DNA of 64,000 bases, taken from Candidatus Rokubacteria bacterium 13_1_40CM_69_27. GTDB taxonomy: Bacteria > Methylomirabilota > Methylomirabilia > Rokubacteriales > CSP1-6. The stretch is from assembly GCA_001917535.1 (NCBI GenBank), contig MNEF01000029.1:13815-77814 (forward strand), written 5' to 3'. The position numbers and the translations under genes are program-made. Below, one piece after another: positions 20,405 to 41,661 of the stretch; positions within the stretch are counted from its first letter, which is position 1; every line of letters starts with the position of its first letter. The notes under the pieces are model-generated. The model was not told the origin of the DNA. It saw nothing but the letters and a program-made list of their open reading frames with translations, and did not search any database.

Positions 20405-20844
20405 TGGACCGGTCCAAGGTGAATATCGCGGTGGGGATCTTCGTCGTCCTGGGTATCTTGGCATTGGGGTACCTTTCCATTAAACTCGGCAGGGTCAGTT
20501 TCTTCACGGGTGGCGGCTATCAAGTGACGGCCGATTTCCCCTCCGTGGGAGGCTTGCGACCCGGCGCCAGCGTCGAGATCGCCGGCGTCGAGGTCGGGCG
20601 GGTCGAGTCCATCGGGTTGGCGGACTATCAGGCGCACGTCGTCCTCCGGCTCAATTCGGACGTGAAGCTGCAGGATGATGCGATCGCGTCGATCAAGACC
20701 AAGGGCCTGATCGGCGAGAAATTCATTCGCATCAGTCCCGGCGCCTCCGAGAAGCTCATCGCGCCGGGGGGCCGTATCCGCGAGATCGAGGCTCCCGTCG
20801 ACCTCGAAGAACTGATCTCCAAGTACGTGTTCGGGAAGGTGTAG
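20404..20844 (+). CDS. mlaD: MlaD-family MCE-domain protein
   Basis: MDRSKVNIAVGIFVVLGILALGYLSIKLG...; single N-terminal TM + MCE domain; TGATG overlap with mlaF. Confidence 0.8.
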   Translation: MDRSKVNIAVGIFVVLGILALGYLSIKLGRVSFFTGGGYQVTADFPSVGGLRPGASVEIAGVEVGRVESIGLADYQAHVVLRLNSDVKLQDDAIASIKTKGLIGEKFIRISPGASEKLIAPGGRIREIEAPVDLEELISKYVFGKV

Positions 20845-20867
20845 TCGCAGGAACGGGAGGTCCGCCA

Positions 20868-21500: not shown

Positions 21501-23164
21501 GCAAGGCCCACGCGCTCCGCGAGCTGCTGGCCGGTCCCGGTCTGGTCCCCGCAGTGGGGGCCCACGACGCGCTCAGCGCGAAGCTGATCGAGGCCGCCGG
21601 GTTTCCCGTCGTCTGGTCGTCCAGCTTCACCGTCTCCGCCGCCCAGCGGGCCATGCCCGACGTCAACCTCCTGACGATGACCGAGACGCTGGAGGCGGCG
21701 CGGCACATCGACAACGCCGTGAGGCTCCCCGTGATCGCCGACTGCGACAACGGCTACGGCAACGCCGTGAACGTCGTGCGGACGGTGGAGGAGTACGAGC
21801 GGGCGGGCATCGCCGGCATCTGCATCGAGGACAACCTCTTTCCGAAGAAATGCAGCCTCTATCCGGGGATGCGGCGCGAGCTGGCGTCGATCGAGGAGCA
21901 CGCCGGCAAGATCCGCGCGGCCAAGAAGGCCCAGCGGGATGCGGCGACGGTCATCATCGCCCGCACCGAGGCGCTGATCGCCGGCTGGGGGATGAAGGAG
22001 GCGCTGCGGCGCGCCCAGGCCTACGCCGAGGCGGGGGCCGACATGATCCTCATGCACTCGAAGGCGCCGACCGCGGCCGAGGTGCTGGAGTTCATGCGAC
22101 TCTGGGAGCGGCCCACGCCCATCGTGGTGGTGCCCACCCTCTACCCGTCGGTGACCTTCGAGGAGCTGGAGGCGGCGGGCGTCAAGCTCGTCATCTGGGC
22201 GAACCAGGTGCTGCGGGGCGCCGTGAAGGGCATGCAGGAGACGCTGGCGACGCTCGGGCGGGCCCGCCGCCTCGACGCCCTGGCCCCCCACATCGTCGCG
22301 CTGGAGGAGATCTACCGTTACGTCGGCGTGGACGAGTTCAAGCGGATCGAGACGGAGTTCCTGCCGCGGGGCGCCTCGGACGTGCGGGCCGTCATCATCG
22401 CGGCGGGCTCGGGCAAGTCGCTCCTGCCGCTGACCGAGGACCGGCCCCAGTGCATGCTCGACATCAAGGGGCGGACGGTGCTGGAGCGGCAGCTCGAGAC
22501 GCTGCGCGCCGGCGGTATCCAGGAGATCGCGGTGGTCCGCGGCTACCGCAAGGAGACCGTGGTGGCCCCGGGGGTGCGCTTCTACGACAACGACGCCTTC
22601 GACGAGAGCGGCGAGCTCGCCTCGCTCTTCGCGGCCGAGCCCGAGCTGCACGGCCGCGTCCTCTTCCTCTACTCGGACATCCTGTTCGAGCGCGCGGTGC
22701 TGGACAAGGTGCTCCGCGCCGAAGGGGACGTCGTCATCGCCGTGGACCGCGCCTGGGTGGACCAGCGGGACCGCCTGCTGCCGCTGGCCAAGCCCGTGGA
22801 TCTGGTGGTCACCTCCGACCCGCCCCGGCCCGGCCGCCGCTCGCTCGGCGAGGACTGGCGTGACGAGCTGGTGCTGATCGGCCAGCGCATCGCCCCGGAG
22901 GCGGCCACCGGCGAGTTCATCGGGCTGGCGGCCCTTTCGCCGCGGGGCGTGGAGCTCGCGCGCGAGAGCCACGCCCACGCTGTGGCCGCGGGCGCCGCAC
23001 CCTTTCACGAGGCGGCCAGCGTCCGGTACGCCGCCTTCACGGACCTGCTGCAGACGCTGGTGGCGGCCGGCCACCCCGTCACCTGCGTGAGCACGTGGAA
23101 GGGCTGGCTCGAGATCGACACGTTCGAAGACTACCAGCGCGCCTGGGCCGAGATCAGGTCGTAG
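21497..23164 (+). CDS. Phosphoenolpyruvate mutase fused to C-terminal nucleotidyltransferase domain
   Basis: N-term ~290 aa: ...LLTMTETLEAARHIDNAVRLPVIADCDNGYGN...GICIEDNLFPKKCS (PEP mutase/ICL family with the EDK(x)5NS-type motif); C-term ~250 aa: AVIIAAGSGKSLLPL...KGRTVLERQLETL (NTP_transferase fold). Confidence 0.85.
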   Translation: MSKAHALRELLAGPGLVPAVGAHDALSAKLIEAAGFPVVWSSSFTVSAAQRAMPDVNLLTMTETLEAARHIDNAVRLPVIADCDNGYGNAVNVVRTVEEYERAGIAGICIEDNLFPKKCSLYPGMRRELASIEEHAGKIRAAKKAQRDAATVIIARTEALIAGWGMKEALRRAQAYAEAGADMILMHSKAPTAAEVLEFMRLWERPTPIVVVPTLYPSVTFEELEAAGVKLVIWANQVLRGAVKGMQETLATLGRARRLDALAPHIVALEEIYRYVGVDEFKRIETEFLPRGASDVRAVIIAAGSGKSLLPLTEDRPQCMLDIKGRTVLERQLETLRAGGIQEIAVVRGYRKETVVAPGVRFYDNDAFDESGELASLFAAEPELHGRVLFLYSDILFERAVLDKVLRAEGDVVIAVDRAWVDQRDRLLPLAKPVDLVVTSDPPRPGRRSLGEDWRDELVLIGQRIAPEAATGEFIGLAALSPRGVELARESHAHAVAAGAAPFHEAASVRYAAFTDLLQTLVAAGHPVTCVSTWKGWLEIDTFEDYQRAWAEIRS

Positions 23165-24324
23165 TGAGCGGACGCGACTTCGCCGCCCTGCTGGAGCGCC
23201 GGGGGTTCGACTTCTTCGCGGGCGTACCCTGCTCGCTGATCGAAGACCTGATCGCGAACCTCGAGAGCCATCCGCGCCTACCCTACATCGACGCCGTCCG
23301 GGAAGACGTGGCGGTGGGCCTGGCCGGGGGCGCCTGGCTGGCCGGCCGGCGCCCCGCGGTCCTCATGCAGAACTCAGGGCTCGGCACGAGCCTGAACGCG
23401 CTCGCCTCCTTCTCCTTGATGTACGGCCTGCCGGCGCTGCTGCTCGTCACCTGGCGCGGCTTCGGCGGCAAGGACGCGCCCGAGCACATCCTCATGGGCG
23501 AGATCTCCCCGGGCCTGCTGGACCTGCTGGGCATCCCCTACCACGTGCTGGCCGGCGACTCGCTCGAGGCGGGCGTCGCCTGGGCGCGGGAGGAGATGGA
23601 CGCCCGCATGAGCCCGGTGGCGCTGCTCATCCCGCCCGGCATATTTTACTCGGAGGGGGCCTCGACGGCCCCCTCCGAAGCCTCCCCCAGGATTGCGCCG
23701 GCAAAGCCGGCGCTCGAACCGCGGCCGCGCCACCGCGCGGAAGGCGCACCGTTGGTGGCGAGGATTTCCCGGATGCAGGCGATCACGGCGGCGGTCAAGC
23801 AGCTGGGTGACGAGCCGGCCATCCACGCCAACGGCTACCCGTCGCGCGAGTCCTGCGCGGTCGCCGACCGCCCGCAGAACTTCTACATGATCGGCTCCAT
23901 GGGCCTGGCTTCGGCCATCGGCCTGGGCGTGGCGCTCGGCCGACCCCAACGGCGCACGATCATCTTCGACGGCGACGGGAACCTCCTGATGAACCTCGGC
24001 GTGATCACCAACGTCGCCGCGCTGGCTCCGCGCAACTTCATCCACTGCGTCTTCGACAACGAGGCCTACGGCTCGACCGGCAACCAGCGGTCGGCGTCGG
24101 CGCACGTCCGGCTCGATCGGGTGGCCGCGGCGGCCGGCTACCGGACGGTGGCGGCGGTGACCGAGGCCGACGAGGTCGCCGCGGCGCTCCGGACGATGCT
24201 CGCCTCGGACGGTCCCCACTTCCTCCTCGCGAAGGTGACGCGCGAGCAGGCGAAGGTCCCGCGGATCCCCCACACCCCCCCGGCGATCCGCGACCGCTTT
24301 CGCGCCAGCATGCTGGGACCGTGA
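23164..24324 (+). CDS. Phosphonopyruvate decarboxylase (ThDP-dependent), carrying an in-frame repeat insertion
   Basis: VSGRDFAALLERRGFDFFAGVPCSLIEDLIANL... (pyrimidine-binding half) and ...GSMGLASAIGLGVALG...IIFDGDGNLLMNLG (ThDP-binding GDG motif); TAGTG overlap with PEP mutase stop. Confidence 0.8.
   Translation: MSGRDFAALLERRGFDFFAGVPCSLIEDLIANLESHPRLPYIDAVREDVAVGLAGGAWLAGRRPAVLMQNSGLGTSLNALASFSLMYGLPALLLVTWRGFGGKDAPEHILMGEISPGLLDLLGIPYHVLAGDSLEAGVAWAREEMDARMSPVALLIPPGIFYSEGASTAPSEASPRIAPAKPALEPRPRHRAEGAPLVARISRMQAITAAVKQLGDEPAIHANGYPSRESCAVADRPQNFYMIGSMGLASAIGLGVALGRPQRRTIIFDGDGNLLMNLGVITNVAALAPRNFIHCVFDNEAYGSTGNQRSASAHVRLDRVAAAAGYRTVAAVTEADEVAAALRTMLASDGPHFLLAKVTREQAKVPRIPHTPPAIRDRFRASMLGP
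23649..23745. repeat. REP/MITE-like element copy C, inserted in frame inside the phosphonopyruvate decarboxylase CDS
   Basis: tcggagggggcctcgacggccccctccgaagcctcccccaggattgcgccggcaaagccggcgctcgaa matches the intergenic copies; encodes the interdomain stretch EGASTAPSEASPRIAPAKPALEPRPRH. Confidence 0.55.
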
Positions 24325-25061
24325 AGGCCATCATCCTCGCCGCCGGCGTGGCCCGCCGCCTCGCGCCGCTCACCGACCGGACGCACAAGTGCCTGCTGCC
24401 CGTGGGCGACCGGCCGCTGCTCACCCGGATGCTGGCCGCCCTGGAGGCCGTCGGCGTCGCCGAAGCGCTGCTCGTCGTCGGTCACTGCGCGGACCAGGTC
24501 CGCGCGGTGGCGGGCGCGCGCTTCGGCCGGATGAGGGTTCGCTACATCGACAACCCGGAGTACACCAGGGGCTCGGTGCTGTCGCTCTACGCCGCGCGCG
24601 AGCACCTCGCCGAGCCCGCCCTGGTGATGGACGCCGACGTCCTCTTTTCCCGCGAGCTCCTGCGTCGCCTGCTGGCGGCGCCGCCCCCCAGCGCCTTCCT
24701 CCTCGATCGCGGGTTCCAGGATACGGGCGAGGAGGTGAAGTACTACACGCGGGGCGATCGGGTGATCGCGCTCGGCAAGAAGGTCGTGCCCGAGTCCTGG
24801 GAGCTCGCGGGGGAGGGTGTCGGCTTCTTCAAGTGTGGCGCCGAAGCCGGCCCCGAGCTGGTCCGCCTGCTCGAGCGCGTCATCGCCGCGGGCAACGGCC
24901 TCAACGAGTACGAAGACGCCCTGCACCTCCTGGTCACGCGGCGTCACGTCGGGTGGGTCGACATCACCGGCCTGCCCTGGACCGAGATCGACTTCGCCGA
25001 GGACCTGCGCCGCGCGCGGGACGAGGTGCTGCCGCACGTCGTCCGGCTCGACGGCGCGTGA
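24321..25061 (+). CDS. Nucleotidyltransferase, LicC/cytidylyltransferase-like (candidate phosphonate cytidylyltransferase)
   Basis: VKAIILAAGVARRLAPLTDRTHKCLLPVGDRPLLTRMLAAL...: GxGxRL-like motif; GTGA overlap with ppd stop. Confidence 0.7.
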   Translation: MKAIILAAGVARRLAPLTDRTHKCLLPVGDRPLLTRMLAALEAVGVAEALLVVGHCADQVRAVAGARFGRMRVRYIDNPEYTRGSVLSLYAAREHLAEPALVMDADVLFSRELLRRLLAAPPPSAFLLDRGFQDTGEEVKYYTRGDRVIALGKKVVPESWELAGEGVGFFKCGAEAGPELVRLLERVIAAGNGLNEYEDALHLLVTRRHVGWVDITGLPWTEIDFAEDLRRARDEVLPHVVRLDGA

Positions 25062-26224
25062 TCACCGAGGCCGCGCTCTATCTCGCGAGCCCCGAGGACG
25101 CGAGCAGGGCGCGTTCAGCGGTGGCCGGCCGGCCGGTCGCCTTCCGGATGCTGATGGCGGCGATCCGCGCGGGGTGCCGGCGGGTGTACGTTCCGGACAT
25201 CTTCCGGGGCAGCGACGTCGAGCGCGCCATCGCGGCGGCCGCCTCCGCGCGGGCCGCCACCGTCTGGCTCGATCACGACGCGAAACCGCCGGAGGGGCCG
25301 ATCCTGCTCCTACCCGCCGCCGCCCTCGTCCCGCCCTCCGCGCTGGCCGCGCTGCTGGCCGCGCCTCCCCTCGCGCTCCTGGCCGCCTCCCGCGACAGCG
25401 ACGCGCCCGTGGTGGCCGCCGGCGCGGCCCTGGCCGCGGCGCTCTGGACGTCGATCGCGGCGGGTCAGCCGCTGGGAGATGCGTTGGAGCGCGCCCTCAA
25501 GGGCACCGAGGTCACGGTGATTCCGGGCGCCGGATGGTACGTGCGGTCGGTGTCGCCCGCGGCCGGGAAGGAGGCGGAGGTGCAGATCTACGCCGGCCTG
25601 GCCAGCGCCATCGACACCTGGCTCGACACGGTCTTTCATCGGCGCTTGTCACTTCCGCTGAGCCGGGCGGCGGTAGCGGGGGGCCTGACGCCCAACCAGG
25701 TCACCCTGGCGAGCCTGCTGGTGGGCCTGGGGGCGGTCTGGTGTTTCTGGCAGGCGACGCCGGCTCGCGCGATCGTCGGGCTGCTGCTCTACGCGGCGGC
25801 CGTCGTCCTCGACCACGCCGACGGTGAGGTCGCGCGGCTCACCCTCACCGAGTCACCGCTGGGCGCGTGGCTCGACGTGGCGGTGGACACCGCGATCCAC
25901 GCGCTGCTCGTCGTGGCTATGGGCATGACGGCCCAACAGGTCGGGGGCGACGGCGCCGCGCTGGCCGGGGTGGTGGCGGCGATCGGCGTCGTGGCGAGCG
26001 CGACGCTGACGCAGACCTCGCCGCCGGCCCGAGGCGGCGGGATCGGCCTGCTGCTCGACGCACTGAGCAACCGGGACGGGTTCTACGCGATGCTGGTCAT
26101 CTTCATCCTGGGGCTCGCGCTCCGGCCAGGCGCGCTCCCCGCGCTCATGATCTTCCTGGCGGTCGGCTGTCACGCCTTCTGGTTGAGCCGGTTGGCCTGG
26201 CGCCCGTTCCTGCGCACTAAGTGA
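25058..26224 (+). CDS. Bifunctional-type protein: degenerate nucleotidyltransferase-like N-domain + CDP-alcohol phosphotransferase membrane domain (IPCT/DIPPS- or BEPIS-like)
   Basis: C-terminal half with ...LDHADGEVARLTLTESPLGAWLDVAVDTAIH (CDP-OH_P_transf D-G-x2-A-R...D-x3-D motif) and 5-6 TM segments; N-terminal ~190 aa soluble; GTGA overlap. Confidence 0.65.
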   Translation: MITEAALYLASPEDASRARSAVAGRPVAFRMLMAAIRAGCRRVYVPDIFRGSDVERAIAAAASARAATVWLDHDAKPPEGPILLLPAAALVPPSALAALLAAPPLALLAASRDSDAPVVAAGAALAAALWTSIAAGQPLGDALERALKGTEVTVIPGAGWYVRSVSPAAGKEAEVQIYAGLASAIDTWLDTVFHRRLSLPLSRAAVAGGLTPNQVTLASLLVGLGAVWCFWQATPARAIVGLLLYAAAVVLDHADGEVARLTLTESPLGAWLDVAVDTAIHALLVVAMGMTAQQVGGDGAALAGVVAAIGVVASATLTQTSPPARGGGIGLLLDALSNRDGFYAMLVIFILGLALRPGALPALMIFLAVGCHAFWLSRLAWRPFLRTK

Positions 26225-26355
26225 ATGTGCGCGATGGTGGGCCCTCGTGATCGAGCTAACCGCCGCGCGGAGATGAGTTGCCTTCCTGGTGCTATAGTAA
26301 GGACCCGGCCGTGACGACCTCACGATCGGACGTGACGTCCTGCGATCGAGCACGA

Positions 26356-27051
26356 ATGTCGGCGAACAGCTGCGGACTTACTGGAGCTGTGCTGTTCGAT
26401 TTCGGCGGCACGCTGGATGCCGACGGTCTACCCTGGAAAGAGCGCGTGGCCCGGCTCTTTAGGCAGGAGGGCCTCGTCGTTACGGTTGAGCGGTTCGATC
26501 CCCTCTTCTACGCGGCGGACGACGCGCTCGTCGGTGCGGTGCCGCCCACCCTGCCGCTTCGGGAAACGGTGTTTCGGCTCGTAGCCGGTCTGGCCCGCAG
26601 CCTCGGGCTGCGTGACGACACCATGGTCGATCGCGTCACGACACGATTCGTCGAGCATGCGGTAGAGAACCTGCGGGGCAATCGGCCCCTGCTCTGGGAG
26701 CTCAGCCGCCGCTACCGTTTGGGCCTCGTCGCCAACTTCTACGGCAATCTCGCCGCGGTGTGTGCGGAGTGCGGAATCCGCGAGCTCTTCGGCGTCATCT
26801 TAGATTCGGCAGACGTGGGATGCGCGAAACCGGACCCCAAGATCTTTCGCATAGCGGCCGAGGCGCTGGGGCTAGCGCCCGCTCACGCCCTGTTCGTGGG
26901 CGACTCCCGGCCCCGCGACATGGCCGGCGCACGAGCGGCCGGCATGCCCCACGTCTGGTTGGTCGGCGAGACCTCTAGCGACGGGCAGCCCTGCTGTCCG
27001 GGCGACGCGGTGATCCGTTCGCTGAAGGACCTGGAAGAGCTGCTATTGTGA
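26356..27051 (+). CDS. HAD-superfamily hydrolase (phosphatase-like)
   Basis: GAVLFDFGGTLD (motif I DxG), ...LGLVANF..., ...FVGDSRPRDMAGARAAG (motif IV). Confidence 0.65.
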   Translation: MSANSCGLTGAVLFDFGGTLDADGLPWKERVARLFRQEGLVVTVERFDPLFYAADDALVGAVPPTLPLRETVFRLVAGLARSLGLRDDTMVDRVTTRFVEHAVENLRGNRPLLWELSRRYRLGLVANFYGNLAAVCAECGIRELFGVILDSADVGCAKPDPKIFRIAAEALGLAPAHALFVGDSRPRDMAGARAAGMPHVWLVGETSSDGQPCCPGDAVIRSLKDLEELLL

Positions 27052-27758
27052 CGCGTGAGCCGACGCTTCGAGGAGGCATCATCGCGGCGGGCAAGGGTCG
27101 CCGGTTGCGCCAGGGGGGCTGGACGATGCCCAAGCCTCTGGTTCCCATCGCCGGTGTGCCCTTGATCGAGTCGGTGATTCGGAACTTCAGCGCCGCGGGC
27201 ATCACCTCCCTCGTCATCATCGTGAACGAGCAAGGACGCGACTGCTTGGAGCACGTGCGCCGGCGCTTCCCCGACCTGGACCTGGACTTCATCGTGAAGA
27301 CTACCGCGTCGTCCCTCGAGAGTTTCGGCGAGGTGGCGACGCGTCTGGGTCGTGGCCGCGCATTGATTTCGACGGTCGACGCCTGGTGCCGGGAAGCCGA
27401 CTTCGTGCACTTCGTGGAGGCGGCGCGACAGCGCCCGGTTCAGGCGACGGTCCTCGCGGTGACGCCGTTGGTGTCGGATGAAGACCCGCTGTGGGTGAGG
27501 CTTGACGACGACGGCCGTGTCAGCGATCTCGGGGGCCGCTCGGGCGAGATGGTCACCGCTGGGATCTATCTGGTCTCCGAGCGTGTGCGGACGATGGTCC
27601 CGCCGTCCGAGCTGGCGCGGCTGCGGGACTTCTTGACCTGGCTCCACTCCCGGGGAGAGGTGCTCTGCGGCGAAGTCATCCAAACGGTCGTCGATGTCGA
27701 CGAGGCCGAAGACGTGGCCCTCGCCGAAGCGCTGGTGGGCGCCGGCAAGAACCCGTGA
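27048..27758 (+). CDS. Nucleotidyltransferase (sugar/alcohol-phosphate NTP-transferase fold)
   Basis: VTREPTLRGGIIAAGKGRRLRQGGWTMPKPLVPIAGVPLIESVIRNF...; GTG start overlaps HAD stop. Confidence 0.65.
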   Translation: MTREPTLRGGIIAAGKGRRLRQGGWTMPKPLVPIAGVPLIESVIRNFSAAGITSLVIIVNEQGRDCLEHVRRRFPDLDLDFIVKTTASSLESFGEVATRLGRGRALISTVDAWCREADFVHFVEAARQRPVQATVLAVTPLVSDEDPLWVRLDDDGRVSDLGGRSGEMVTAGIYLVSERVRTMVPPSELARLRDFLTWLHSRGEVLCGEVIQTVVDVDEAEDVALAEALVGAGKNP

Positions 27759-27777
27759 GTCCTTCGGGAGGTGTCGC

Positions 27778-28614
27778 GTGAGCCGAGCATGTTGGGGCAT
27801 TTTTCGAGAACGGGCGCATTCGCCCGGTCGGGAGAGCGACGACACCGAAATCCTCCGTCTGACGGGAAAGCACCTCGAGGCGAATGGGTACGAGGTGATC
27901 TTGAAGGCGCCGGAGGAGGTGAACGGCGCCACCGACGGCCGCCCGCGCTTTGCGTTCCTGATGTGTGAAGGTCTCGCCGTGCTGGGCCAACTCCGGGCCT
28001 GGGAGGCCGACGGGGTGCGGCAGGTGAACAGCCCCCTGGCGGTCCTGAACACGTATCGGGAGCGGATGATCGCGCAGCTCAAGGAGGCGAACGTTCCGTT
28101 CATCCAGAGCCGTATCGTTTCGACCGCCGAGCCCTACCGTGGCGCGGCTCCGCCCGTATGGGTCAAGCGAGCCGATGTTCACTACACCCAGGAGGGCGAT
28201 GTGGTCTTCGCGCCCAGCGAGGGTGTGCTCGGCGAGTCGCTCCGGGGGCTGGCCGAGCGCGGGATTCCCCGCGCGGTGATCCAGGCGCACGTCGAGGGCG
28301 ACCTCATCAAGTTCTACGGGATCGGCAGCGGAGGCGGAGCCGACGGCGGGCCACAGTGGTTTCGGTGGCTCTATCACAAGGACCAGACGGTGGCCGGCCA
28401 CCCGTTCGACCCGGTGCGATTGGCCCGGCTCGTGCGGAGAGCGGCCGGAGCCCTGAGCCTCGAAGTCTACGGGGGCGACGCAATCGCCACCGCAGCCGGT
28501 GACCTCGTGTTGCTCGACCTCAACGCCTGGCCCAGCTTCGCCCTGTATCGGGAGGAGGCGGCCGCCCGCATCGCCGCCTACCTCGCCCTTCGCTTCCGGG
28601 AAGAGGCGCTGTGA
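27778..28614 (+). CDS. ATP-grasp-fold protein (putative carboxylate-amine/alcohol ligase); start uncertain
   Basis: ...ILRLTGKHLEANGYEVILKAPEEVNG...WVKRADVHYTQEGDVVFAPSEG...VIQAHVEGDLIKFYGIGSGG...; RimK/GshB-like topology; first in-frame start after upstream stop is GTG 27778. Confidence 0.5.
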   Translation: MSRACWGIFRERAHSPGRESDDTEILRLTGKHLEANGYEVILKAPEEVNGATDGRPRFAFLMCEGLAVLGQLRAWEADGVRQVNSPLAVLNTYRERMIAQLKEANVPFIQSRIVSTAEPYRGAAPPVWVKRADVHYTQEGDVVFAPSEGVLGESLRGLAERGIPRAVIQAHVEGDLIKFYGIGSGGGADGGPQWFRWLYHKDQTVAGHPFDPVRLARLVRRAAGALSLEVYGGDAIATAAGDLVLLDLNAWPSFALYREEAAARIAAYLALRFREEAL

Positions 28615-29939
28615 CCGCGCGGCGTCCGGTCGGTCCCCGGTCTCAACGGATCGTCGCCCAGGAAGCGCGGCGGATCGCCCCCGGTTTGCAGTCGTACGCC
28701 CTTTACTCGGGTCTGGCCATGGCGCGGGGAAGCGGCTGCACGCTCGTCGACGAGGACGGGAACGAGTACATCGACTTCATCGCGGGGATCGGAGTGGGCA
28801 GCGTCGGCCACTGCCATCCGCACTACGTGGAGGCGCTCAAACGGCAGGTCGAGCGATTGACCTTCGGTAGCTTCACCACCGAGGGGCGGGCGCGCTTTCT
28901 CGAACTGCTGGCCACCGTCACCCCGCCGGGATTGACGCGTATCCAGTTGTTCTCGGGAGGAGCCGAGGCGGTGGAGGCGGCCTTGCGGCTGGCGAAGGCG
29001 GCGACTCGGAAACACGAGGTCATCGGATTCTGGGGCGGGTTCCACGGGAAAACCGGCGGCGTACTGGGGCTGCTGGGGAGCGAGTTCAAGCACCATCTCG
29101 GACCCTTCGTGCCCGGCCAGTACCTGTCGCCGTATGCGGACTGCTATCGCTGCCCGCTCCGGCTCCGCTACCCGGAGTGCGGCATCGCCTGCGCCGAGTA
29201 CCTGCGCGACGTCATCCGCTATCAGACCAGCGGCGAGATCGCGGCGGTCATCGTCGAGTCTATCCAGGGGACGGCCGGCAACGTCGTCCCTCCGGAGGGG
29301 TTCCTCCGGGCCATCCAGACGATCGCCCGCGACCACGGCGCCCTGCTGATCGTCGACGAGATGCTGACCGGCTTCGGTCGAACCGGGTCCATGTGGGGCT
29401 GCGATCACGACGGGGTCGTCCCCGACGTCATGACGGTGGGCAAAGGCATCGGCGGGGGCTTCCCCATGAGTGGCGTGGTCTCCACGGACGAGCTCACCAG
29501 CCGCAAGCCGTGGTCCAACCCGAGCGCGAGCTCCTCGAGTTACGGTGGCAACCCGCTGGCCGCCGCCGCCGGGCTGGCGTCGCTCGAGATCATCCTGAAG
29601 GAGGACCTCGTCAAGAAGGCCGAGCGGGTGGGCACCGTGATGCTGGCGCGGCTGGAAGCACTGAAGGAGAAGTATCGGTGCGTCGGCGACGTGCGGGGCC
29701 GAGGCCTCATGCTGGGCATCGAGCTCGTGAAGGATCGCATGACGAGGGAGCCGCTGGCCAAGGAGGTGACGCAGGCTCTCTATCAGGAGTGTCTGCGGCG
29801 CGGCTTGGTGGCGATGTGCTATTCACCCTCCATTCGGATCAACCCGCCGCTCATCATCGGCGAGGACCGCGCCCTGGAAGGTCTCGCCATCCTCGACGAG
29901 GCCCTGGCGGCGGTCCTCCGGCAACACGGGCTCACGTAG
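28611..29939 (+). CDS. Class III (omega-type) PLP aminotransferase
   Basis: ...DFIAGIGVGSVGHCHPHYVEAL...LLIVDEMLTGFGRTGSMWGCDHDGVVPDVMTVGKGIGGGFP...: fold-type I class III signature with the Lys in TVGKG; GTGA overlap. Confidence 0.8.
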   Translation: MTARRPVGPRSQRIVAQEARRIAPGLQSYALYSGLAMARGSGCTLVDEDGNEYIDFIAGIGVGSVGHCHPHYVEALKRQVERLTFGSFTTEGRARFLELLATVTPPGLTRIQLFSGGAEAVEAALRLAKAATRKHEVIGFWGGFHGKTGGVLGLLGSEFKHHLGPFVPGQYLSPYADCYRCPLRLRYPECGIACAEYLRDVIRYQTSGEIAAVIVESIQGTAGNVVPPEGFLRAIQTIARDHGALLIVDEMLTGFGRTGSMWGCDHDGVVPDVMTVGKGIGGGFPMSGVVSTDELTSRKPWSNPSASSSSYGGNPLAAAAGLASLEIILKEDLVKKAERVGTVMLARLEALKEKYRCVGDVRGRGLMLGIELVKDRMTREPLAKEVTQALYQECLRRGLVAMCYSPSIRINPPLIIGEDRALEGLAILDEALAAVLRQHGLT

Positions 29940-29940
29940 G

Positions 29941-30999
29941 ATGCTGCGCGGAGCGATCGTCGGCCTCGGCAACGTCGCCGTTCACGCGCACCTTCCTGGC
30001 TGGCTCCAGCGTTCCGACGTCGAGATCGTCGCGGCCACCGATACGCTCCCGACGCGGCGCGCTGCCGCGGAGGCTCTTCTACCGGGCGCCCGCTGGCACG
30101 ACTCCGCCGCGGAGCTCATGGCGCGCGGAGATCTCGACTTCGTCGACATCTGCACCCCTCCCTCGAGCCACGCGGGGCTGATCCGGACCGCCCTCCAGCG
30201 CGGCCTCCACGTGCTGTGCGAGAAGCCGTTGGTCTGCTCGGTCGACGAACTGGCGGCGCTGGCGCGACTGGCGGCGGCCAGGGATCGGGTGCTCCACACC
30301 GTTCACAACTGGCACTACGCGCCGATCATCCAACGGACCTGGACGCTGCTCCGAGACGGGGCGATCGGCCAAGTCCGGCGGGTCGTCTGGCAGACCCTGC
30401 GGACGAAACCCGCTGACGGCGGCGACGAACGCAACGGGAACTGGCGCGTCAATCCGGACGTCGCCGGCGGCGGCATCCTCACCGACCACGGCTGGCACAT
30501 CTTCTACGTCCTGCAACGCTGGATCGGCCAGCGACCGACGTCGATCAGCGCCACGCTGGAAACGCGCCAGCACACCCAGTGGCCCGTCGAGGACACGGCG
30601 ACCCTTCGACTGACCTTCCCGGAGGCGACGGCGGAGGTCCTGCTTACCTGGGCATCCAATGTGAGGCGAACCTGGGCCGAGGTCACGGGCACCGAGGGCA
30701 CGATCCGGCTGGAAGACGGCACCCTCGTCCTGAAGCGCTCCGGCCGCGAACGCCTGGAGCGGCGGTGGACGTGCCGACCAGGGCTGTCGGAGGGATCGCA
30801 TCATCCCGACTGGTTCCACACAGCCGCGGACCATTTCCTGGCCGCGGTCAACGGCTTGAGTCCGCGGACCGCGAATCTCGCCGAGGCGTCGCTCTGCGTC
30901 ACGCTAGAGGCGCTGGCTCGGGAATCGAATCACCGAGGGCAAGCGCTGTCACTGTCCCCACTCTCTGTTCCCCTCCCCGGGCCGGAGTCATCCCTCTGA
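29941..30999 (+). CDS. Gfo/Idh/MocA-family NAD(P)-dependent oxidoreductase
   Basis: MLRGAIVGLGNVAVHAHLPGWLQRSDVEIVAATD...HVLCEKPL...: Rossmann N-domain + Gfo C-domain. Confidence 0.8.
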   Translation: MLRGAIVGLGNVAVHAHLPGWLQRSDVEIVAATDTLPTRRAAAEALLPGARWHDSAAELMARGDLDFVDICTPPSSHAGLIRTALQRGLHVLCEKPLVCSVDELAALARLAAARDRVLHTVHNWHYAPIIQRTWTLLRDGAIGQVRRVVWQTLRTKPADGGDERNGNWRVNPDVAGGGILTDHGWHIFYVLQRWIGQRPTSISATLETRQHTQWPVEDTATLRLTFPEATAEVLLTWASNVRRTWAEVTGTEGTIRLEDGTLVLKRSGRERLERRWTCRPGLSEGSHHPDWFHTAADHFLAAVNGLSPRTANLAEASLCVTLEALARESNHRGQALSLSPLSVPLPGPESSL

Positions 31000-31037
31000 A
31001 CACGGAGACCGCTGGCTCCATCCAGTCCGGGGAGGAC

Positions 31038-32186
31038 GTGGTGGTCGTCCTCCCGTCCCGGACGGAGGAGGTTCCCCCGAGCACGCGGCTCGCCGGGCTT
31101 CCGTTGCTCCGTCGGATCGTGCTGGCGGCCGGGCGCGCGGGGTTCGGACGAGTTCTGGTGGGGTGCCTGCGGAGCGAAGACCAGCCGCTGCTCGCCGGCA
31201 CCTGCGCCGGGGCGCTGCGCCCGAACGGGCCGACGTCGCTGTCGGCCCGGCGCATCGTGCTTCTGCCCATGAACGTCGTGCCGCAGCCGAGCTGGTTGCG
31301 ACAGCTTCGGGAGATCGAGCTCGAGCCCGACCGGCTGTACGTAGACCAGGCGTCGGTGGCGGTCGTGGAGGCGACGGACCCGGCGCGGGTGGTCGCCGTG
31401 GCCGCTCGGTGTGGCAGCGCGGCCGACGTCGTCGCGACCTTGCGGGGCACCTTCAAGGCCGCAGACCGGGCCTTCGATGAGAAGGGGCGATTCCCGCTGG
31501 CGTCGCTCCGCGACATCCCGGCCGCCGAGACCTGGCTCCTGCGGAGCCTGATCAAGCAGCACGAAGGGTTCATGTCACGCCACCTGGAGCGACGAATCTC
31601 CCTGGCCCTGACCCGCAGGCTGGTCACCACGCGAATCACGCCGAATGCGATGACCGTGGTGAGCGTCGCCATCGGGCTTGTCGGCGCGCCCTTCTTCCTG
31701 TCTTCCGCCCCCGCCTACCAGTTGGCGGGGGCGCTCCTCTTCTTGACCCATTCGATCGTCGACGGGTGCGACGGAGAGATCGCCCGATTGAAGTTCCTGG
31801 AGTCGGCGGCCGGCGCTGTCCTCGACTTCTGGGGCGACAACCTCGTGCACGCGGCGGTGTTCACCTGCCTGGCGGTCGGTTGGAGCCTCGATACCGGGAC
31901 CACCTGGCCGCCGCTGCTCGGCGGTATCGCGGTCGCGAGCACGCTGGGATCGGCCGCCGTCGTCTATGGGCGCGGCCTCCGGGCCTCCCACGCGAACGGT
32001 GAGACCTCACGGCTGTCGCGCCTCGCCGATGCGCTCTCTCACCGGGACTTCATCTATGTCATCCTCCTCCTGGCCGCAGCGGGAAAGGCCGCATGGTTCC
32101 TCGTCATTGCCGCGGCCGGGGCGCCGATCTACCTGCTCCTGCTCGCGTGGATCGGTCGAACGGATCGAGGTGCTGCGCCGTCGTGA
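31038..32186 (+). CDS. Second IPCT/DIPPS-like protein: nucleotidyltransferase-like N-domain + CDP-alcohol phosphotransferase (paralog of 25058..26224)
   Basis: ...VVVVLPSRTEEVPPSTRLAGLPLLRRIVLAAGRAGFGRVLVG... then ...FLTHSIVDGCDGEIARLKFLESAAGAVLDFWGDNLVH (DG..AR..D...D motif) and TM segments; exact start (GTG ~31038) uncertain. Confidence 0.6.
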   Translation: MVVVLPSRTEEVPPSTRLAGLPLLRRIVLAAGRAGFGRVLVGCLRSEDQPLLAGTCAGALRPNGPTSLSARRIVLLPMNVVPQPSWLRQLREIELEPDRLYVDQASVAVVEATDPARVVAVAARCGSAADVVATLRGTFKAADRAFDEKGRFPLASLRDIPAAETWLLRSLIKQHEGFMSRHLERRISLALTRRLVTTRITPNAMTVVSVAIGLVGAPFFLSSAPAYQLAGALLFLTHSIVDGCDGEIARLKFLESAAGAVLDFWGDNLVHAAVFTCLAVGWSLDTGTTWPPLLGGIAVASTLGSAAVVYGRGLRASHANGETSRLSRLADALSHRDFIYVILLLAAAGKAAWFLVIAAAGAPIYLLLLAWIGRTDRGAAPS

Positions 32187-32721: not shown

Positions 32722-32728
32722 GGTCGGG

Positions 32729-33721
32729 ATGCGCTCCATCCGTTTGGGGTTCCTCGCGCTGGGGGCGACGCTGCTCGTCGGCCTGATCGTCGAGAACGAC
32801 CCGGGAGCGATCCTGGCCTCCATGTCGCAGCTGTCCTGGCGGCTCCTCATCGTGCTCTGCTTCCCGATGCCGCTCGTCGCGCTCTTCGACACGCTTGGGT
32901 GGCGTTCCGCGTTCCCGCGGCACCGCGTCGCGTTCCGCACGCTGCTGTCGGTGCGGCTCGCCGGCGAAGCCTTCAACATCACCACTCCCACGGCCGCCCT
33001 GGGCGGCGAGGCCGTCAAGGCCTGGCTGCTGCGGGATCGCGTCCCGCTCGACGAGAGCCTGCCGTCCCTGATCGTGGCGAAGACGACGATCACGATCGCG
33101 CAGGGTGTCTTCCTCCTGCTCGGGGTCACGCTCGCTCACTGGACGTTGCCGCCGGATTCGCTGCTGCTCCGGGGCATGCAGGCGTTGCTGGTGGTGGAGG
33201 TCGTTGCCCTGACCGGATTCGTCCTCGCCCAGATGCGGGGCGTGCTCGGATGGGGCAGACGCCTGCTGAGCGGCTTCGGCTTCGGCTTGCCGCGGTTCTT
33301 CGAGGCCCGCGGCACGCTCGAGCGCGTCGACGACGGGCTGGCACGCTTCTACCGCCACGAGCGGGGGCGATTTATCGCGTCGATTCTCTGGCATCTCGTC
33401 GCCTGGCTGCTTGGTTCGGTCGAGACCTACCTGATCCTCCGCTTCATCGGTGTGGGCGTGTCGTTGACCACCGCCACCGTGATCGAAGCCTTCGGCGCCG
33501 CCGTCCGCGTCGCCACATTTTTGATCCCGGCCAGTCTGGGGGCCCTCGAGGGCGGCTTCGTCGCGACGTTCGTGGCCCTGGGGCTCGGGCCGACCGCCGG
33601 CGTCTCGTTCAGCCTGGTGCGGCGCGTGCGCGAGGCGACCTGGGCCGGAGTCGGACTCGTGGCGTTCGCGGCGCGCGCCCGGTCGCAGGCGCGTGGCCAC
33701 CGCCCGGCTTCCGCCCACTGA
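32729..33721 (+). CDS. Lysylphosphatidylglycerol-synthase-TM / UPF0104 'flippase-like' membrane protein (possibly HpnL-related)
   Basis: MRSIRLGFLALGATLLVGLIVENDPGAILASMSQLSWRLLIVLCFPMPLVALFDTLGWRSAF...: ~8 TM, conserved Arg/Glu pattern of LPG_synthase_TM domain. Confidence 0.6.
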   Translation: MRSIRLGFLALGATLLVGLIVENDPGAILASMSQLSWRLLIVLCFPMPLVALFDTLGWRSAFPRHRVAFRTLLSVRLAGEAFNITTPTAALGGEAVKAWLLRDRVPLDESLPSLIVAKTTITIAQGVFLLLGVTLAHWTLPPDSLLLRGMQALLVVEVVALTGFVLAQMRGVLGWGRRLLSGFGFGLPRFFEARGTLERVDDGLARFYRHERGRFIASILWHLVAWLLGSVETYLILRFIGVGVSLTTATVIEAFGAAVRVATFLIPASLGALEGGFVATFVALGLGPTAGVSFSLVRRVREATWAGVGLVAFAARARSQARGHRPASAH

Positions 33722-33754: not shown

Positions 33755-34502
33755 TCAGCGCGTGAGGGGGGAGGCGCGGCGGGCGGCGCCGCCAAAGACC
33801 GACCGGAAGCCGAAGTAGGCGATCGAGTCCTTCATGTTCGACACGAACCGCTTGAGCGGACTCATTCCCGGGTCCGTGACGTACTCGAGCGTGAGGCTCA
33901 CGCGCTCCTCGCCCTCGCCCAGCGGCGTGATCGTGTGCCACAGGTTGTCGCCGTTGAACAGCACGAGGGTGCCCGGCTCGGTGGCCAGCCGGATCTCCAG
34001 GGGCTCGCGCCGCGGGTCCTTGCGGTAGGGCTGGCAGACCAGGCGGCTCGACGACCGCTCGATGAGGCCTACCAGCACCGTGTAGCGGGCACCGTTGTAA
34101 TAAGACGTGTCGAAGTGGAAGCCGATATGATCGCCCGGCTCGGTGTAATAGTAGAGCGCGCACGCGTGCGGATCGGTGTCGGGACAGCACTGGAGCGGTC
34201 GTCCCGTCACCCGGCGCAGGAAGTCGATGAACGCGGGCGAGCGGTAGAGCGCCAGGATGGCCGGCGCTTCGGCCGCCAGCGTGAAGGAGCTCACGCTGCC
34301 GCCCTTCTTGTGCTTGGGGATGTAGTTGCGGTGAACGGCGGGCCGGACGCGCTCGACCTCGGCCACCAACGGCTCGATGACGGACGACGGCAGGCAGCGC
34401 TCGAGATAGACGAACTCGTTCTGCCGCCAGTACGCCGCCTGCACCGCCTCCACGTCGAGCGCGCGGATCACGCGCGCGATCTCCTCCTGCACCGGGTCCA
34501 TC
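33755..34502 (-). CDS. 2OG-Fe(II) oxygenase-superfamily protein (putative hydroxylase); start uncertain
   Basis: ...[24 protein letters not shown]...[11 protein letters not shown]...: H-x-D...H facial-triad spacing of 2OG-FeII_Oxy/PhyH-like enzymes. Confidence 0.5.
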
Positions 34503-34649
34503 AGGCGATCGAGCACTCGGCCCTCCGGGCGATCGTGTCGGCTCGCTGGCGACGCGCGGCCCCGCCCGCTATGGTACACTGGCCCGGTCCCGCTGACCGG
34601 GGGATCGTTCCCGCTCATCGCGCGTTCATATCGACGAAGGAGGCACCCC

Positions 34650-35723
34650 GTGGCATCGGTTCGAGTCGCCCTCATCGGCGTCGGCAACTGCGCGTCGGCC
34701 CTCGTCCAGGGCGCGCAATTCTACCGCACCACTCCCGAGGAAGGTTTCGTGCCCGGCCTGATGCACCCGCGGCTGGGCGAATATCATATCGGCGACATCG
34801 AGTTCTCGGCGGCCTTCGATATCGATGTCCGCAAAGTCGGCCGGGATCTTTCCGAGGCGATTTTCGAGGTTCCGAACAACACCGTGCGCTTCGCCCAGGT
34901 CCCGCCCCTGGGCGTGCCGGTGCACCGGGGCATGACCCATGACGGGTTGGGAACCTACCTCTCGCAGATGATTCGCAAGGCCCCCGGCTCGACGGCCGAC
35001 ATCGCGGGCATCTTGCGGGAGACGGGGACCCACGTCGTCGTCAACTTCCTCCCGGTCGGCAGCGAGATGGCGACGAAGTGGTACGTCGAGCAGGTCCTCG
35101 ACGCCGGCTGCGCCTTCGTCAACTGCATCCCCGTCTTCATCGCCCGGGAGGCCTACTGGCGCCGGCGCTTCGAGGAGCGCGGGCTCCCGGTCGTGGGCGA
35201 CGACGTCAAGTCCCAGGTGGGCGCCACCATCGTCCACCGGGCGCTGGCCCGGCTCTTTATGGATCGCGGCGTTCGCCTGGAGCGCACGAGCCAGCTCAAC
35301 GTCGGCGGCAACACCGACTTCTACAACATGCTCGAGCGCGAACGGCTGGTGTCGAAGAAGATCTCGAAGACCGACGCGGTGCGCTCCCAGCTCCGCCACG
35401 ACCTGCCGAGCGAGGCGATCCACATCGGACCCAGCGACTACGTGCCCTGGCTCGAGGACCGCAAGTGGGCGCACATCCGCCTGGAGGGCCGCAGCTTCGG
35501 CGATCAGCCGGTGACGGTGGAGCTGAAGCTCGAGGTCTGGGACTCGCCCAACTCGGCCGGCGTGGTGATCGACGCCATCCGCTGCGGCAAGATCGCGCTC
35601 GACCGCGGCCTCAAGGGCGCGCTCCTGGCGCCCTCCGCGTACCTCATGAAATCACCGCCGGAGCAGTGGGCCGACGACACGGCCCGCCAGCGTCTGGAGC
35701 GGTTCATCAGCGGCGAAGAGTAG
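34650..35723 (+). CDS. ino1: myo-inositol-1-phosphate synthase (bacterial/archaeal short type)
   Basis: [26 protein letters not shown]...[28 protein letters not shown]...: ~357 aa MIPS with Rossmann N-terminus and conserved SKxxSKT-like region. Confidence 0.85.
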
Positions 35724-39317: not shown

Positions 39318-39334
39318 GCTTACCTCCTGTTCGG

Positions 39335-41635: not shown

Positions 41636-41661
41636 ACGGATAACGTATCATTGCGCCCGGG

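What the first reader, a model, noticed from the sequence alone, without database searches (positions are those of the whole stretch)
25058..32186. Two paralogous nucleotidyltransferase-like + CDP-alcohol phosphotransferase fusion proteins
Both proteins (25058..26224 and ~31038..32186) carry the DG(x)2AR…G…D(x)3D CDP-alcohol phosphotransferase motif (LDHADGEVARL… / VDGCDGEIARL…) in a 5-6 TM C-domain. Each follows a ~190-aa soluble N-domain whose first strand-helix resembles NTP-transferase folds but lacks a canonical GxGxR motif. This matches the IPCT/DIPPS (di-myo-inositol-phosphate) and BEPIS (CDP-inositol-dependent ether phosphoinositide synthase) architecture. Together with the MIPS at 34650 and the HAD phosphatase at 26356 it predicts CDP-inositol-based chemistry; two copies suggest two acceptors or two donors (CDP-inositol vs CMP-aminoethylphosphonate).
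Basis: partly seen in the sequence, partly recalled or inferred. Interest (0 to 1): 0.65.

Follow-up and report, generated by a model that had tools for sequence, protein, structure and literature searches.

The report
Inositol head-group transferases inside hopanoid locus
Two distantly related membrane enzymes of the CDP-alcohol phosphotransferase family, each carrying a dead nucleotidyltransferase-like domain, sit inside the hopanoid lipid locus of an uncultured soil bacterium (Rokubacteria), next to inositol-phosphate synthesis genes, and probably attach inositol-derived head groups to a membrane lipid that nobody has yet identified.

Summary
Both ORFs (A, 25058-26224; B, 31038/31041-32186) are real genes. 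Each has the complete D-x2-D-G-x2-A-R-x8-G-x3-D-x3-D motif, a 6-TM catalytic domain, and a ~165-190 aa N-domain with a nucleotidyltransferase-like fold but no G-rich loop.

The closest known structure is not IPCT/DIPPS. It is AF2299 of Archaeoglobus fulgidus, an enzyme with a cytidylyltransferase-like domain and no assigned function.

The window comes from Candidatus Rokubacteria bacterium 13_1_40CM_69_27. Both genes lie in its hopanoid locus (SHC, HpnH/G/A, Mla-like transporter, HpnL, HpnN).

- **Family A** is restricted to Methylomirabilota. It is almost always arranged MlaC, IPCT/LicC-like cytidylyltransferase, A, Fe/2OG hydroxylase, MIPS, HpnN. The phosphonate genes (Ppm-PntC, Ppd) are present in only a minority of loci.
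- **Family B** belongs to a separate conserved operon: HAD, cytidylyltransferase, ATP-grasp, aminotransferase, GFO dehydrogenase, B, HpnL-like flippase. This operon repeatedly lands beside MIPS, HpnN or SHC.

Best reading: two Kennedy-type pathways in which a separate active cytidylyltransferase makes a CDP-cyclitol and A or B transfers it to a membrane alcohol. Substrates and product are inferred, not shown.

The parts
25058..26224 (+). Protein A (388 aa). An AF2299-type CDP-alcohol phosphotransferase. The N-domain (about residues 1-165) has a nucleotidyltransferase-like fold without the G-loop. The C-domain has six TM helices and the motif D252-H-A-D255-G-E-V-A-R260...G269...D273...D277.
31038..32186 (+). 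Protein B (382 aa, or 381 aa from GTG 31041). An AF2299-type CDP-alcohol phosphotransferase, co-linear with AF2299 down to residue numbers (D242-G-C-D245-G-E-I-A-R250...G259...D263...D267).
24321..25061 (+). NT1, an active-type LicC/IPCT/PntC-family cytidylyltransferase (LAAGVARRL loop). It is translationally coupled to A through a GTGA overlap. It is the proposed CDP-inositol synthase.
34650..35723 (+). myo-Inositol-1-phosphate synthase (MIPS).
   Evidence: TIGR03450, 503 bits; found within 3.5 kb downstream of A in 29 of 33 loci
33755..34687 (-). HalD/BesD-like Fe(II)/2-oxoglutarate oxygenase with an HxD (HFD) triad, so a hydroxylase type. It is conserved next to A.
21497..23164 (+). PEP mutase fused to a PntC-like cytidylyltransferase. 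This is the accessory phosphonate branch.
23095..24324 (+). Phosphonopyruvate decarboxylase-like TPP enzyme (accessory).
   Evidence: (TIGR03297, 301 bits against a cut-off of 312.5)
26278..27051 (+). HAD-IA phosphatase, first gene of the B operon. The likely start is near 26356.
27048..27758 (+). NT2, the second active-type nucleotidyltransferase (AAGKGRRL loop), in the B operon.
27778..28614 (+). Conserved ATP-grasp protein with no Pfam match, in the B operon. It could be a ligase or a kinase.
28611..29939 (+). Class III aminotransferase, in the B operon.
29941..30999 (+). Gfo/Idh/MocA NAD-dependent dehydrogenase, in the B operon. It lies directly upstream of B in 56 of 60 metagenome loci.
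32729..33721 (+). HpnL-like LPG_synthase_TM (flippase-like) membrane protein. It is the partner of the B operon.
   Evidence: (TIGR03476, 165 bits against a cut-off of 195.65)
35725..38481 (+). HpnN-like MMPL/RND hopanoid transporter.
18258..21500 (+). Mla-like lipid transport genes: MlaE, MlaF, probably MlaD, and MlaC/HpnM. In most relatives they lie directly upstream of NT1-A, and the MlaC-to-NT1 gap is 6-80 bp.
16697..18676 (+). Squalene-hopene cyclase. It anchors the hopanoid locus, together with HpnH 14963-15991(-), HpnG, HpnA and HpnD upstream.

Best explanation
A and B are distant paralogues of the AF2299 type of CDP-alcohol phosphotransferase. Each has a six-TM catalytic domain with an intact metal and nucleotide motif. 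This is preceded by a cytosolic domain that keeps the nucleotidyltransferase fold but has lost the catalytic G-rich loop, so it is probably structural, docking or regulatory.

Each enzyme appears to work with a separately encoded, active LicC/IPCT-type cytidylyltransferase in a Kennedy-type head-group pathway fed by MIPS.

- Module A is conserved across Rokubacteria. MIPS makes inositol-1-phosphate, NT1 activates it with CTP to CDP-inositol, and A transfers phospho-inositol to a membrane alcohol. The acceptor could be a hopanoid polyol such as bacteriohopanetetrol, or a glycerolipid. The product would then be handled by the adjacent Mla-like and HpnN transporters. In some lineages a PEP mutase-PntC/Ppd branch adds 2-aminoethylphosphonate-type chemistry.
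- Module B makes a modified, probably oxidised and then aminated and possibly acylated, cyclitol phosphate. The enzymes are the HAD phosphatase, GFO dehydrogenase, class III aminotransferase and ATP-grasp protein. NT2 activates the product, B transfers it, and the HpnL-like protein flips the result.

Shown: domain architecture, motif, fold, family restriction and synteny. Inferred: every substrate, the order of steps and the lipid acceptor.
For: Architecture and fold. The best solved match for both is AF2299, then IPCT-DIPPS.

Dead N-domain: the family consensus has no GxGxR(L) loop. There is no Pfam nucleotidyltransferase or AF_2299-like_N hit. There is no sequence link to NT1. The B N-domain alone finds only 93 relatives among 1.84 billion representatives, none of them a canonical nucleotidyltransferase.

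NT1 as the IPCT-like enzyme: of the three active nucleotidyltransferases, it is the only one that aligns over the full IPCT domain. It scores 71 bits on NF041135 positions 1-223, and E 5.5e-8 against 2xme over its full length. The Ppm-fused domain does not hit IPCT.

Synteny of family A in species-level Methylomirabilota genomes:
- NT1 directly upstream in 34 of 38 loci.
- MIPS downstream in 29 of 33.
- HpnN in 25 of 29.
- SHC in 23 of 26.
- MlaC-to-NT1 gap of 6-80 bp in about 26 of 34.

B operon: it is conserved, with GFO upstream in 56 of 60 loci, the full five-gene set in 18 of 23, and HpnL downstream in 20 of 39. It is repeatedly re-associated with MIPS, HpnN, SHC and MlaC in different gene orders (L098, L120, L131, L075, L102).

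Precedents: an operon of MIPS, IPCT and the CDP-inositol-dependent lipid synthase BEPIS in Rhodothermus (as reported in PMC4587543). Also the Bacteroides 'alternative' cluster of MIPS, NTP transferase, CDP-alcohol transferase and HAD, with a lysyl-PG-synthase-like gene nearby (PMC9246714).
Against: No substrate was tested. AF2299 and AfDIPPS, the closest solved relatives, use soluble substrates and 'do not process lipids' (PMC4634129). NT1's best single PDB hit is LicC (phosphocholine), and it also aligns over its full length with PntC, so its substrate is not fixed by sequence. A carries an unusual D-H-x-D-G variant of the motif. Distant CDP-alcohol transferases sharing it in Omnitrophota and DPANN archaea sit beside Ppm and Ppd (3 of 10 loci). 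That hints at a phosphonate donor. No phosphorylated or inositol-linked bacteriohopanepolyol turned up in the literature search. No cultured Rokubacteria exist to supply lipid data.
Confidence: 0.45

Rival explanations
1. Soluble-osmolyte reading. NT1, A and MIPS form a split DIP-type pathway (IPCT plus a DIPPS-like enzyme). It would make di-myo-inositol phosphate or a related soluble phosphodiester, such as a glycero-phospho-inositol-like compound, as a compatible solute. Under this reading it is co-located with hopanoid genes only because both serve stress tolerance.
For: The best NCBIfam model for both C-domains is IPCT/DIPPS. The closest structures, AF2299 and AfDIPPS, use soluble substrates (PMC4634129). 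An RD motif after TM4 is shared with DIPPS and AF2299. MIPS, IPCT and DIPPS make up the complete known DIP gene set. Hopanoid producers are reported to be enriched in osmotic-stress functions (PMC12324291).
Against: NT1-A is operon-coupled to MlaE-F-D-C, with gaps of 6-80 bp, and MIPS abuts HpnN. B is followed by a flippase-like membrane protein. Scores against the DIPPS model are far below its cut-off (50 and 84 bits against 580). From general knowledge, DIP is known from hyperthermophiles, whereas these are soil and groundwater mesophiles. The core A module has no phosphatase.
Confidence: 0.2
2. Phosphonate-transferase reading. A's real donor is CMP-2-aminoethylphosphonate, or a related CMP-phosphonate, made by the Ppm-PntC/Ppd branch. 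A would transfer the phosphonyl group to inositol phosphate or to a lipid, giving a phosphonolipid or the 'phosphono-terpene' that others have speculated about.
For: In this window Ppm-PntC, Ppd, NT1 and A are contiguous. Distant CDP-alcohol transferases with the same LDHxDGEVA motif lie beside Ppm and Ppd in 3 of 10 non-Rokubacteria loci. Linkage of hopanoid genes with PEP mutase has been noted in Roseomonas and Nitrosococcus, and a terpene-phosphonate product proposed (PMC8776678, PMC8942020).
Against: Most A loci lack Ppm and Ppd, and MlaC directly abuts NT1, so A's conserved role cannot depend on them unless the genes lie elsewhere in the genome. NT1 is retained alongside the PntC domain, which implies a different substrate. 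MIPS is the constant partner.
Confidence: 0.15
3. Bifunctional-fusion reading, closest to the first reader's title. The N-domains are active but non-canonical nucleotidyltransferases, so A and B are true IPCT/DIPPS-like bifunctional enzymes.
For: The fold is nucleotidyltransferase-like. The N-domains keep several invariant polar residues: A has Y8, R50 and W70, and B has R26, R72 and W86.
Against: The G-rich loop and signature Lys/Arg are absent from the whole family. No Pfam nucleotidyltransferase hit appears even at E <= 10. hhalign against NT1 is not significant. A complete active nucleotidyltransferase gene accompanies each enzyme. The NF041135 alignment covers only the C-terminal half.
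Confidence: 0.05
4. Housekeeping reading. A and B are ordinary phospholipid synthases (PgsA, PssA or a PI-phosphate synthase using CDP-diacylglycerol), as several database names suggest ('phosphatidylglycerophosphate synthase').
For: JGI source names. Membership of PF01066.
Against: PgsA and PssA models score 18-22 bits against cut-offs above 100. PIPS and AIPS models score 32-51 bits against 170-180. The N-domain and the AF2299-like TM2-TM3 sequence argue for small CDP-alcohol donors (PMC4634129).
Confidence: 0.05

Closest known systems
AF2299 of Archaeoglobus fulgidus (PDB 4O6M/4O6N/4Q7C)
   Same: The two-domain plan is the same: a cytosolic cytidylyltransferase-like domain followed by a 6-TM CDP-alcohol phosphotransferase. 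It is the best sequence and fold match for both A and B. For B, the profile search gives E 2.5e-31, the TM-score is 0.77, and the TM2-TM3 stretch is nearly identical (HSIIDGCDGEIARLKFMES against HSIVDGCDGEIARLKFLES) with the same residue numbering.
   Different: The N-domains of A and B are longer and do not match Pfam AF_2299-like_N. Overall identity is 18-24%. The genomic setting differs: AF2299-like genes in Archaeoglobi-like contigs sit among unrelated housekeeping genes, whereas A and B sit in a hopanoid, inositol and lipid-export locus. AF2299 itself has no assigned physiological function.
Bifunctional IPCT/DIPPS (PDB 4MND; NCBIfam NF041135)
   Same: The order of domains is the same. The C-domain is the second-best match. 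There is a link to MIPS and CDP-inositol.
   Different: In IPCT/DIPPS the N-domain is an active cytidylyltransferase. Here it lacks the catalytic loop, and the active enzyme is a separate gene. Scores are far below the family cut-off. IPCT/DIPPS makes a soluble product in hyperthermophiles.
BEPIS pathway of Rhodothermus marinus, and the putative Bacteroides vulgatus-type 'alternative' inositol-lipid cluster
   Same: The gene logic matches: MIPS, a separate CTP:inositol-phosphate cytidylyltransferase, and a CDP-alcohol phosphotransferase that uses CDP-inositol on a lipid alcohol. The Bacteroides cluster also has a HAD hydrolase, with a lysyl-PG-synthase-like membrane protein nearby (PMC4587543, PMC9246714). 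That mirrors HAD, NT2, B and HpnL here.
   Different: Orthology was not tested, because no reference sequences were available. The Rokubacteria modules add a pseudo-nucleotidyltransferase domain, a dehydrogenase/aminotransferase/ATP-grasp set, and a phosphonate branch. They are also embedded in a hopanoid locus.
PntC/Ppm phosphonate tailoring clusters
   Same: There is a Ppm-PntC fusion followed by Ppd, as in many AEP cell-surface tailoring clusters (PMC6697681, PMC8942020).
   Different: The transferases noted in the clusters that paper examined are LicD-like enzymes or glycosyltransferases. Here the candidate is a CDP-alcohol phosphotransferase, and the phosphonate genes are dispensable in most relatives.

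Membership tests
CDP-alcohol phosphotransferase (Pfam PF01066) | Signature D-x2-D-G-x2-A-R-x8-G-x3-D-x3-D | tested here: met
   Complete in A (D252...D277) and in B (D242...D267), and invariant in both 64-sequence alignments
CDP-alcohol phosphotransferase (Pfam PF01066) | HMM score above the gathering cut-off | tested here: met
   37.4 and 39.9 bits against 22
CDP-alcohol phosphotransferase (Pfam PF01066) | Polytopic membrane fold (six TM helices plus juxtamembrane helix) | tested here: met
   AlphaFold2 secondary structure and Foldseek matches to AF2299, DIPPS and PIPS
CDP-alcohol phosphotransferase (Pfam PF01066) | CMP-releasing transfer of a substituted phosphate to an alcohol | not testable with these tools
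   Needs an enzyme assay
AF2299-type (cytidylyltransferase-like domain + CDP-AP) | N-terminal cytosolic domain with nucleotidyltransferase-like fold, packed on the TM domain | tested here: met
   Whole-chain TM-score 0.73-0.77 to 4O6M. The N-domains also hit MurU, RmlA, KdsB and PntC. PMC4634129 describes the AF2299 domain as cytidylyltransferase-like.
AF2299-type (cytidylyltransferase-like domain + CDP-AP) | Sequence match to Pfam AF_2299-like_N (PF21682) | tested here: not met
   No hit for either N-domain at E <= 10. The domain is recognised on Archaeoglobi-like relatives.
Bifunctional IPCT/DIPPS (NF041135) | Active IPCT domain (G-rich loop, full-length model match above cut-off) | tested here: not met
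   Only model positions from about 192 or 209 onward align, at 50 and 84 bits against a cut-off of 580. No GxGxR in the consensus.
Bifunctional IPCT/DIPPS (NF041135) | Genomic association with MIPS | tested here: met
   29 of 33 A loci. B lies next to MIPS in some loci, such as L098 and L120.
BEPIS-type CDP-inositol lipid synthase | Operon with MIPS and a separate IPCT-like cytidylyltransferase | tested here: met
   NT1 upstream in 34 of 38 loci, MIPS downstream in 29 of 33. NT1 aligns over its full length with IPCT.
BEPIS-type CDP-inositol lipid synthase | Orthology to the characterised R. marinus enzyme; lipid alcohol acceptor | not tested
The acceptor needs biochemistry.
PIP synthase / AIP synthase | NCBIfam equivalog score above cut-off | tested here: not met
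   32-51 bits against cut-offs of 170-180
Housekeeping PgsA / PssA | NCBIfam equivalog score above cut-off | tested here: not met
   pgsA 22 bits against 109, pssA 18 bits against 107

The most novel reading that the evidence does not exclude
Rokubacteria may make a class of composite hopanoids that has not been described. In these, a bacteriohopanepolyol would be phosphodiester-linked to inositol by A, and to an aminated or acylated cyclitol by B. In some lineages a 2-aminoethylphosphonate decoration would be added. That would make A and B the first hopanoid head-group phosphotransferases, and HpnL-type proteins the flippases for such lipids.
Probability: 0.2. Interest if true: 0.85.

Novelty: new variant of a known kind. 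Interest (0 to 1): 0.58.

Why it matters
Hopanoids are major bacterial membrane lipids and geological biomarkers. I found no report of a phosphorylated or inositol-linked head group on them. HpnL, and the genes for many side-chain modifications, still have no assigned function.

Here a whole uncultured, soil-abundant phylum keeps a CDP-inositol-type module wired into its hopanoid and lipid-export operon. That gives a concrete, testable gene set (MIPS, NT1, A; and the B operon with HpnL) for finding a new lipid class. It also offers a physiological context for the AF2299 enzyme type, whose function is still unknown although its soluble domain is used as a crystallisation chaperone. Finally, it bears on the 'phosphono-terpene' speculation raised for Roseomonas and Nitrosococcus.

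Tried and rejected
- **Pfam and NCBIfam on the isolated N-domains** gave nothing, even at E <= 10.
- **hhalign of the B family against NT1** was not significant. The link to nucleotidyltransferases is therefore by fold only.
- **phmmer of the B N-domain against 1.84 billion representatives** found only its own narrow family.
- **AF2299's genomic context.** I tried to learn its function by retrieving relatives with a fragment of its sequence. The nearest relatives sit among tryptophan, purine and CTP-synthase genes, which is uninformative.
- **The unknown ORF 27778-28614** gave nothing by single-sequence search. Only a profile showed it to be an ATP-grasp protein.
- **Literature searches** for inositol- or phospho-linked bacteriohopanepolyols found nothing relevant.
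- **Rejected ideas.** The segment 26278-33721 is not a one-off insertion: the same operon recurs beside hopanoid genes in other gene orders. The phosphonate genes are not the core of the system.

Full report
**What is there.** The window has about 70% G+C, so I chose genes by third-position GC. The two ORFs of the finding are real.

A runs from 25058 to 26224. It starts at a GTG that overlaps the TGA of the upstream gene, and it is 100% identical to a 388-aa protein of Candidatus Rokubacteria bacterium 13_1_40CM_69_27.

B runs from 31038, or more likely 31041, to 32186. It is preceded by GGGAGGA.

Both pass Pfam CDP-OH_P_transf, at 37.4 and 39.9 bits against a cut-off of 22. Both carry the complete D-x2-D-G-x2-A-R-x8-G-x3-D-x3-D signature, and those residues are invariant in 64-sequence family alignments.

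**Architecture.** The AlphaFold2 models are confident, with pLDDT 94.6 for A and 89.6 for B. Each shows an alpha/beta N-domain of about 165 residues, then linker and juxtamembrane helices, then six long helices.

Foldseek against the PDB puts AF2299 (4O6M) first for both, as a whole-chain match with TM-score 0.73-0.77. IPCT-DIPPS (4MND) comes next, followed by the AF2299-PIPS chimeras. The N-domains on their own also pick up MurU, RmlA, KdsB and PntC.

Sequence searches agree. For B, AF2299 scores E 1.3e-20 with a single sequence and 2.5e-31 with a profile, with the same residue numbering through TM2-TM3. For A the values are 1.2e-10 and 1.6e-15.

PMC4634129 states that AF2299 and AfDIPPS, unlike most family members, have an N-terminal cytidylyltransferase-like domain and do not process lipids.

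The N-domains here lack the G-rich catalytic loop in the whole family. They match no Pfam model, including AF_2299-like_N. They have no significant sequence link to the neighbouring active nucleotidyltransferase. They also form a narrow family of their own, with 93 hits among 1.84 billion representatives.

A and B are homologous along their whole length (hhalign 99.8%, E 2.4e-28, 28% identity). BLAST sees only the C-domains, at 30% identity.

NCBIfam ranks the C-domains in the order IPCT/DIPPS, then AIPS, then PIPS, and far below those PgsA and PssA. All scores are well below the cut-offs.

**Context.** The surrounding genes form a hopanoid locus. They include IspH, HpnD, HpnA, HpnG, HpnH, a CruF-like gene, squalene-hopene cyclase, MlaE/F/(D)/C (HpnM), an HpnL-like protein and HpnN.

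Between MlaC and HpnN lie, in order: a PEP mutase-PntC fusion, Ppd, NT1, A, HAD, NT2, an ATP-grasp protein, a class III aminotransferase, a GFO dehydrogenase, B, a frameshifted gene remnant, HpnL, an Fe/2OG hydroxylase on the minus strand, and MIPS.

**Family A.** A scan of one genome per GTDB species found A only in Methylomirabilota/Rokubacteria, with 44 loci at 40% identity or more. The synteny counts are:

| Feature | Loci with feature / loci with enough flank |
|---|---|
| NT1 directly upstream | 34 / 38 |
| Fe/2OG hydroxylase downstream | 28 / 33 |
| MIPS within 3.5 kb downstream | 29 / 33 |
| HpnN downstream | 25 / 29 |
| SHC within 10 kb upstream | 23 / 26 |
| Ppd upstream | 4 / 26 |
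| Ppm upstream | 1 / 26 |

In about 26 of 34 loci MlaC abuts NT1, with a gap of 6-80 bp. The remaining loci carry a Ppd-only insert of about 1.2 kb or a Ppm-PntC plus Ppd insert of about 2.8 kb. The conserved unit is therefore Mla, NT1, A, hydroxylase, MIPS and HpnN, and the phosphonate branch is accessory.

NT1 belongs to the LicC/IPCT/PntC group. It is the only one of the three active nucleotidyltransferases that aligns over the full IPCT domain.

**Family B.** The segment 26278-33721 is absent from the A loci of other genomes. It recurs as a conserved operon:
- GFO directly upstream of B in 56 of 60 loci.
- The full set of HAD, NT2, ATP-grasp, aminotransferase and GFO in 18 of 23.
- HpnL at 50% identity or more downstream in 20 of 39.

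The operon is found beside MMPL/HpnN, MlaC, MlaA, MIPS or SHC in several different gene orders (L005, L075, L098, L102, L113, L120, L131). In some of these A is absent and B sits next to MIPS. A minority of B-family members lie in an unrelated context, DAO followed by B.

**Mechanism.** The gene logic matches two described inositol-lipid gene arrangements. The first is the Rhodothermus operon of MIPS, IPCT and the CDP-inositol-dependent lipid synthase BEPIS. The second, still putative, is the Bacteroides cluster of MIPS, NTP transferase, CDP-alcohol transferase and HAD, with a lysyl-PG-synthase-like gene nearby.

I therefore favour, at about 0.45, two Kennedy-type head-group pathways that use separately encoded cytidylyltransferases. 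A would transfer phospho-inositol. B would transfer a modified, probably aminated, cyclitol phosphate. In both cases the acceptor would be a membrane alcohol that is then flipped and exported. A hopanoid acceptor is the most interesting possibility but is only an inference from operon structure.

The rivals are a soluble DIP-like osmolyte (0.2), a CMP-phosphonate donor for A (0.15), truly bifunctional enzymes (0.05) and housekeeping synthases (0.05). The phosphonate rival draws on A's D-H-x-D-G motif variant. Omnitrophota and DPANN transferases that lie beside Ppm and Ppd share that variant.

**Novelty.** The enzyme type is known structurally (AF2299) but has no assigned function. Linkage of hopanoid genes with PEP mutase has been noted elsewhere only as speculation. 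HpnL remains unassigned. I found no report of a CDP-inositol module conserved within hopanoid loci, or of phospho-inositol hopanoids.

I rate this a new variant of a known kind, of moderate to good interest. The interest is limited because every substrate assignment is inferred.

Noticed in passing
window 33755-34687 (-): A HalD/BesD-like Fe(II)/2-oxoglutarate oxygenase with an H-F-D triad, so a hydroxylase type rather than a halogenase. It is conserved next to A in 28 of 33 Rokubacteria loci. It is a candidate for an unassigned hydroxylation of the hopanoid side chain or head group.
   Followed up: partly
window 32186-32729: Between B and HpnL there is a stretch that reads as membrane-protein sequence in two different frames (for example ...LLTHSHALDSLKTEFLVEVTHAPLAIVGMLVGW...). 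It looks like a frameshifted remnant of a His-rich membrane protein. In L005, by contrast, B and the flippase-like gene overlap directly.
   Followed up: partly
window 27778-28614 (+): A strongly conserved protein of about 275 aa with no Pfam or NCBIfam match. A profile search shows it to be an ATP-grasp protein: 7DRM at E 9e-5, RimK-like ligases at 4e-4, and a weak ITPK1 hit. It cannot yet be called a ligase or a kinase.
   Followed up: partly
window 21497-24324; loci L001-L055: The phosphonate genes show three states between MlaC and NT1: none (gap 6-80 bp), Ppd only (about 1.2 kb), or Ppm-PntC plus Ppd (about 2.8 kb). Ppd without an adjacent Ppm in several genomes is unexplained.
   Followed up: partly
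L064 8500-16800 (Omnitrophota); also L063, L065 (DPANN archaea): A 250-aa CDP-alcohol transferase with LDHSDGEVAR and no N-domain. It lies in a cluster with a LicC-like nucleotidyltransferase, a radical SAM enzyme, Ppm-PntC and Ppd. This is a likely phosphonolipid or phosphonoglycan pathway that uses a CDP-alcohol-type transferase.
   Followed up: partly
L005 12178-14294: In another Rokubacteria genome the B operon is followed by a radical SAM gene and a third AF2299-like paralogue of 399 aa. The phylum therefore has an expanded set of these enzymes.
   Followed up: no
L153 5637-6735, L154, L155: In Archaeoglobi-like contigs the AF_2299-like_N domain (Pfam PF21682) is called as a separate ORF of 129-131 aa, just upstream of a CDP-alcohol transferase of 210-244 aa. 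The domain may therefore exist unfused, or the genes may be split by gene calling.
   Followed up: no
window 15982-16803 (-) and 9825-11438 (-): Two further genes lie inside the hopanoid locus. One is a CruF-like carotenoid-hydratase-family membrane protein, next to HpnH and SHC and conserved in relatives. The other is a Zn-dependent dehydrogenase with IolM-like and TDH-like scores. Their roles are unknown.
   Followed up: no
window 38586-42912: Downstream of HpnN lie a CADD/PqqC-like iron oxygenase, a molybdopterin oxidoreductase and a folate/biopterin-family MFS transporter. The MFS (BT1) gene also follows HpnN in L001 and L003.
   Followed up: no
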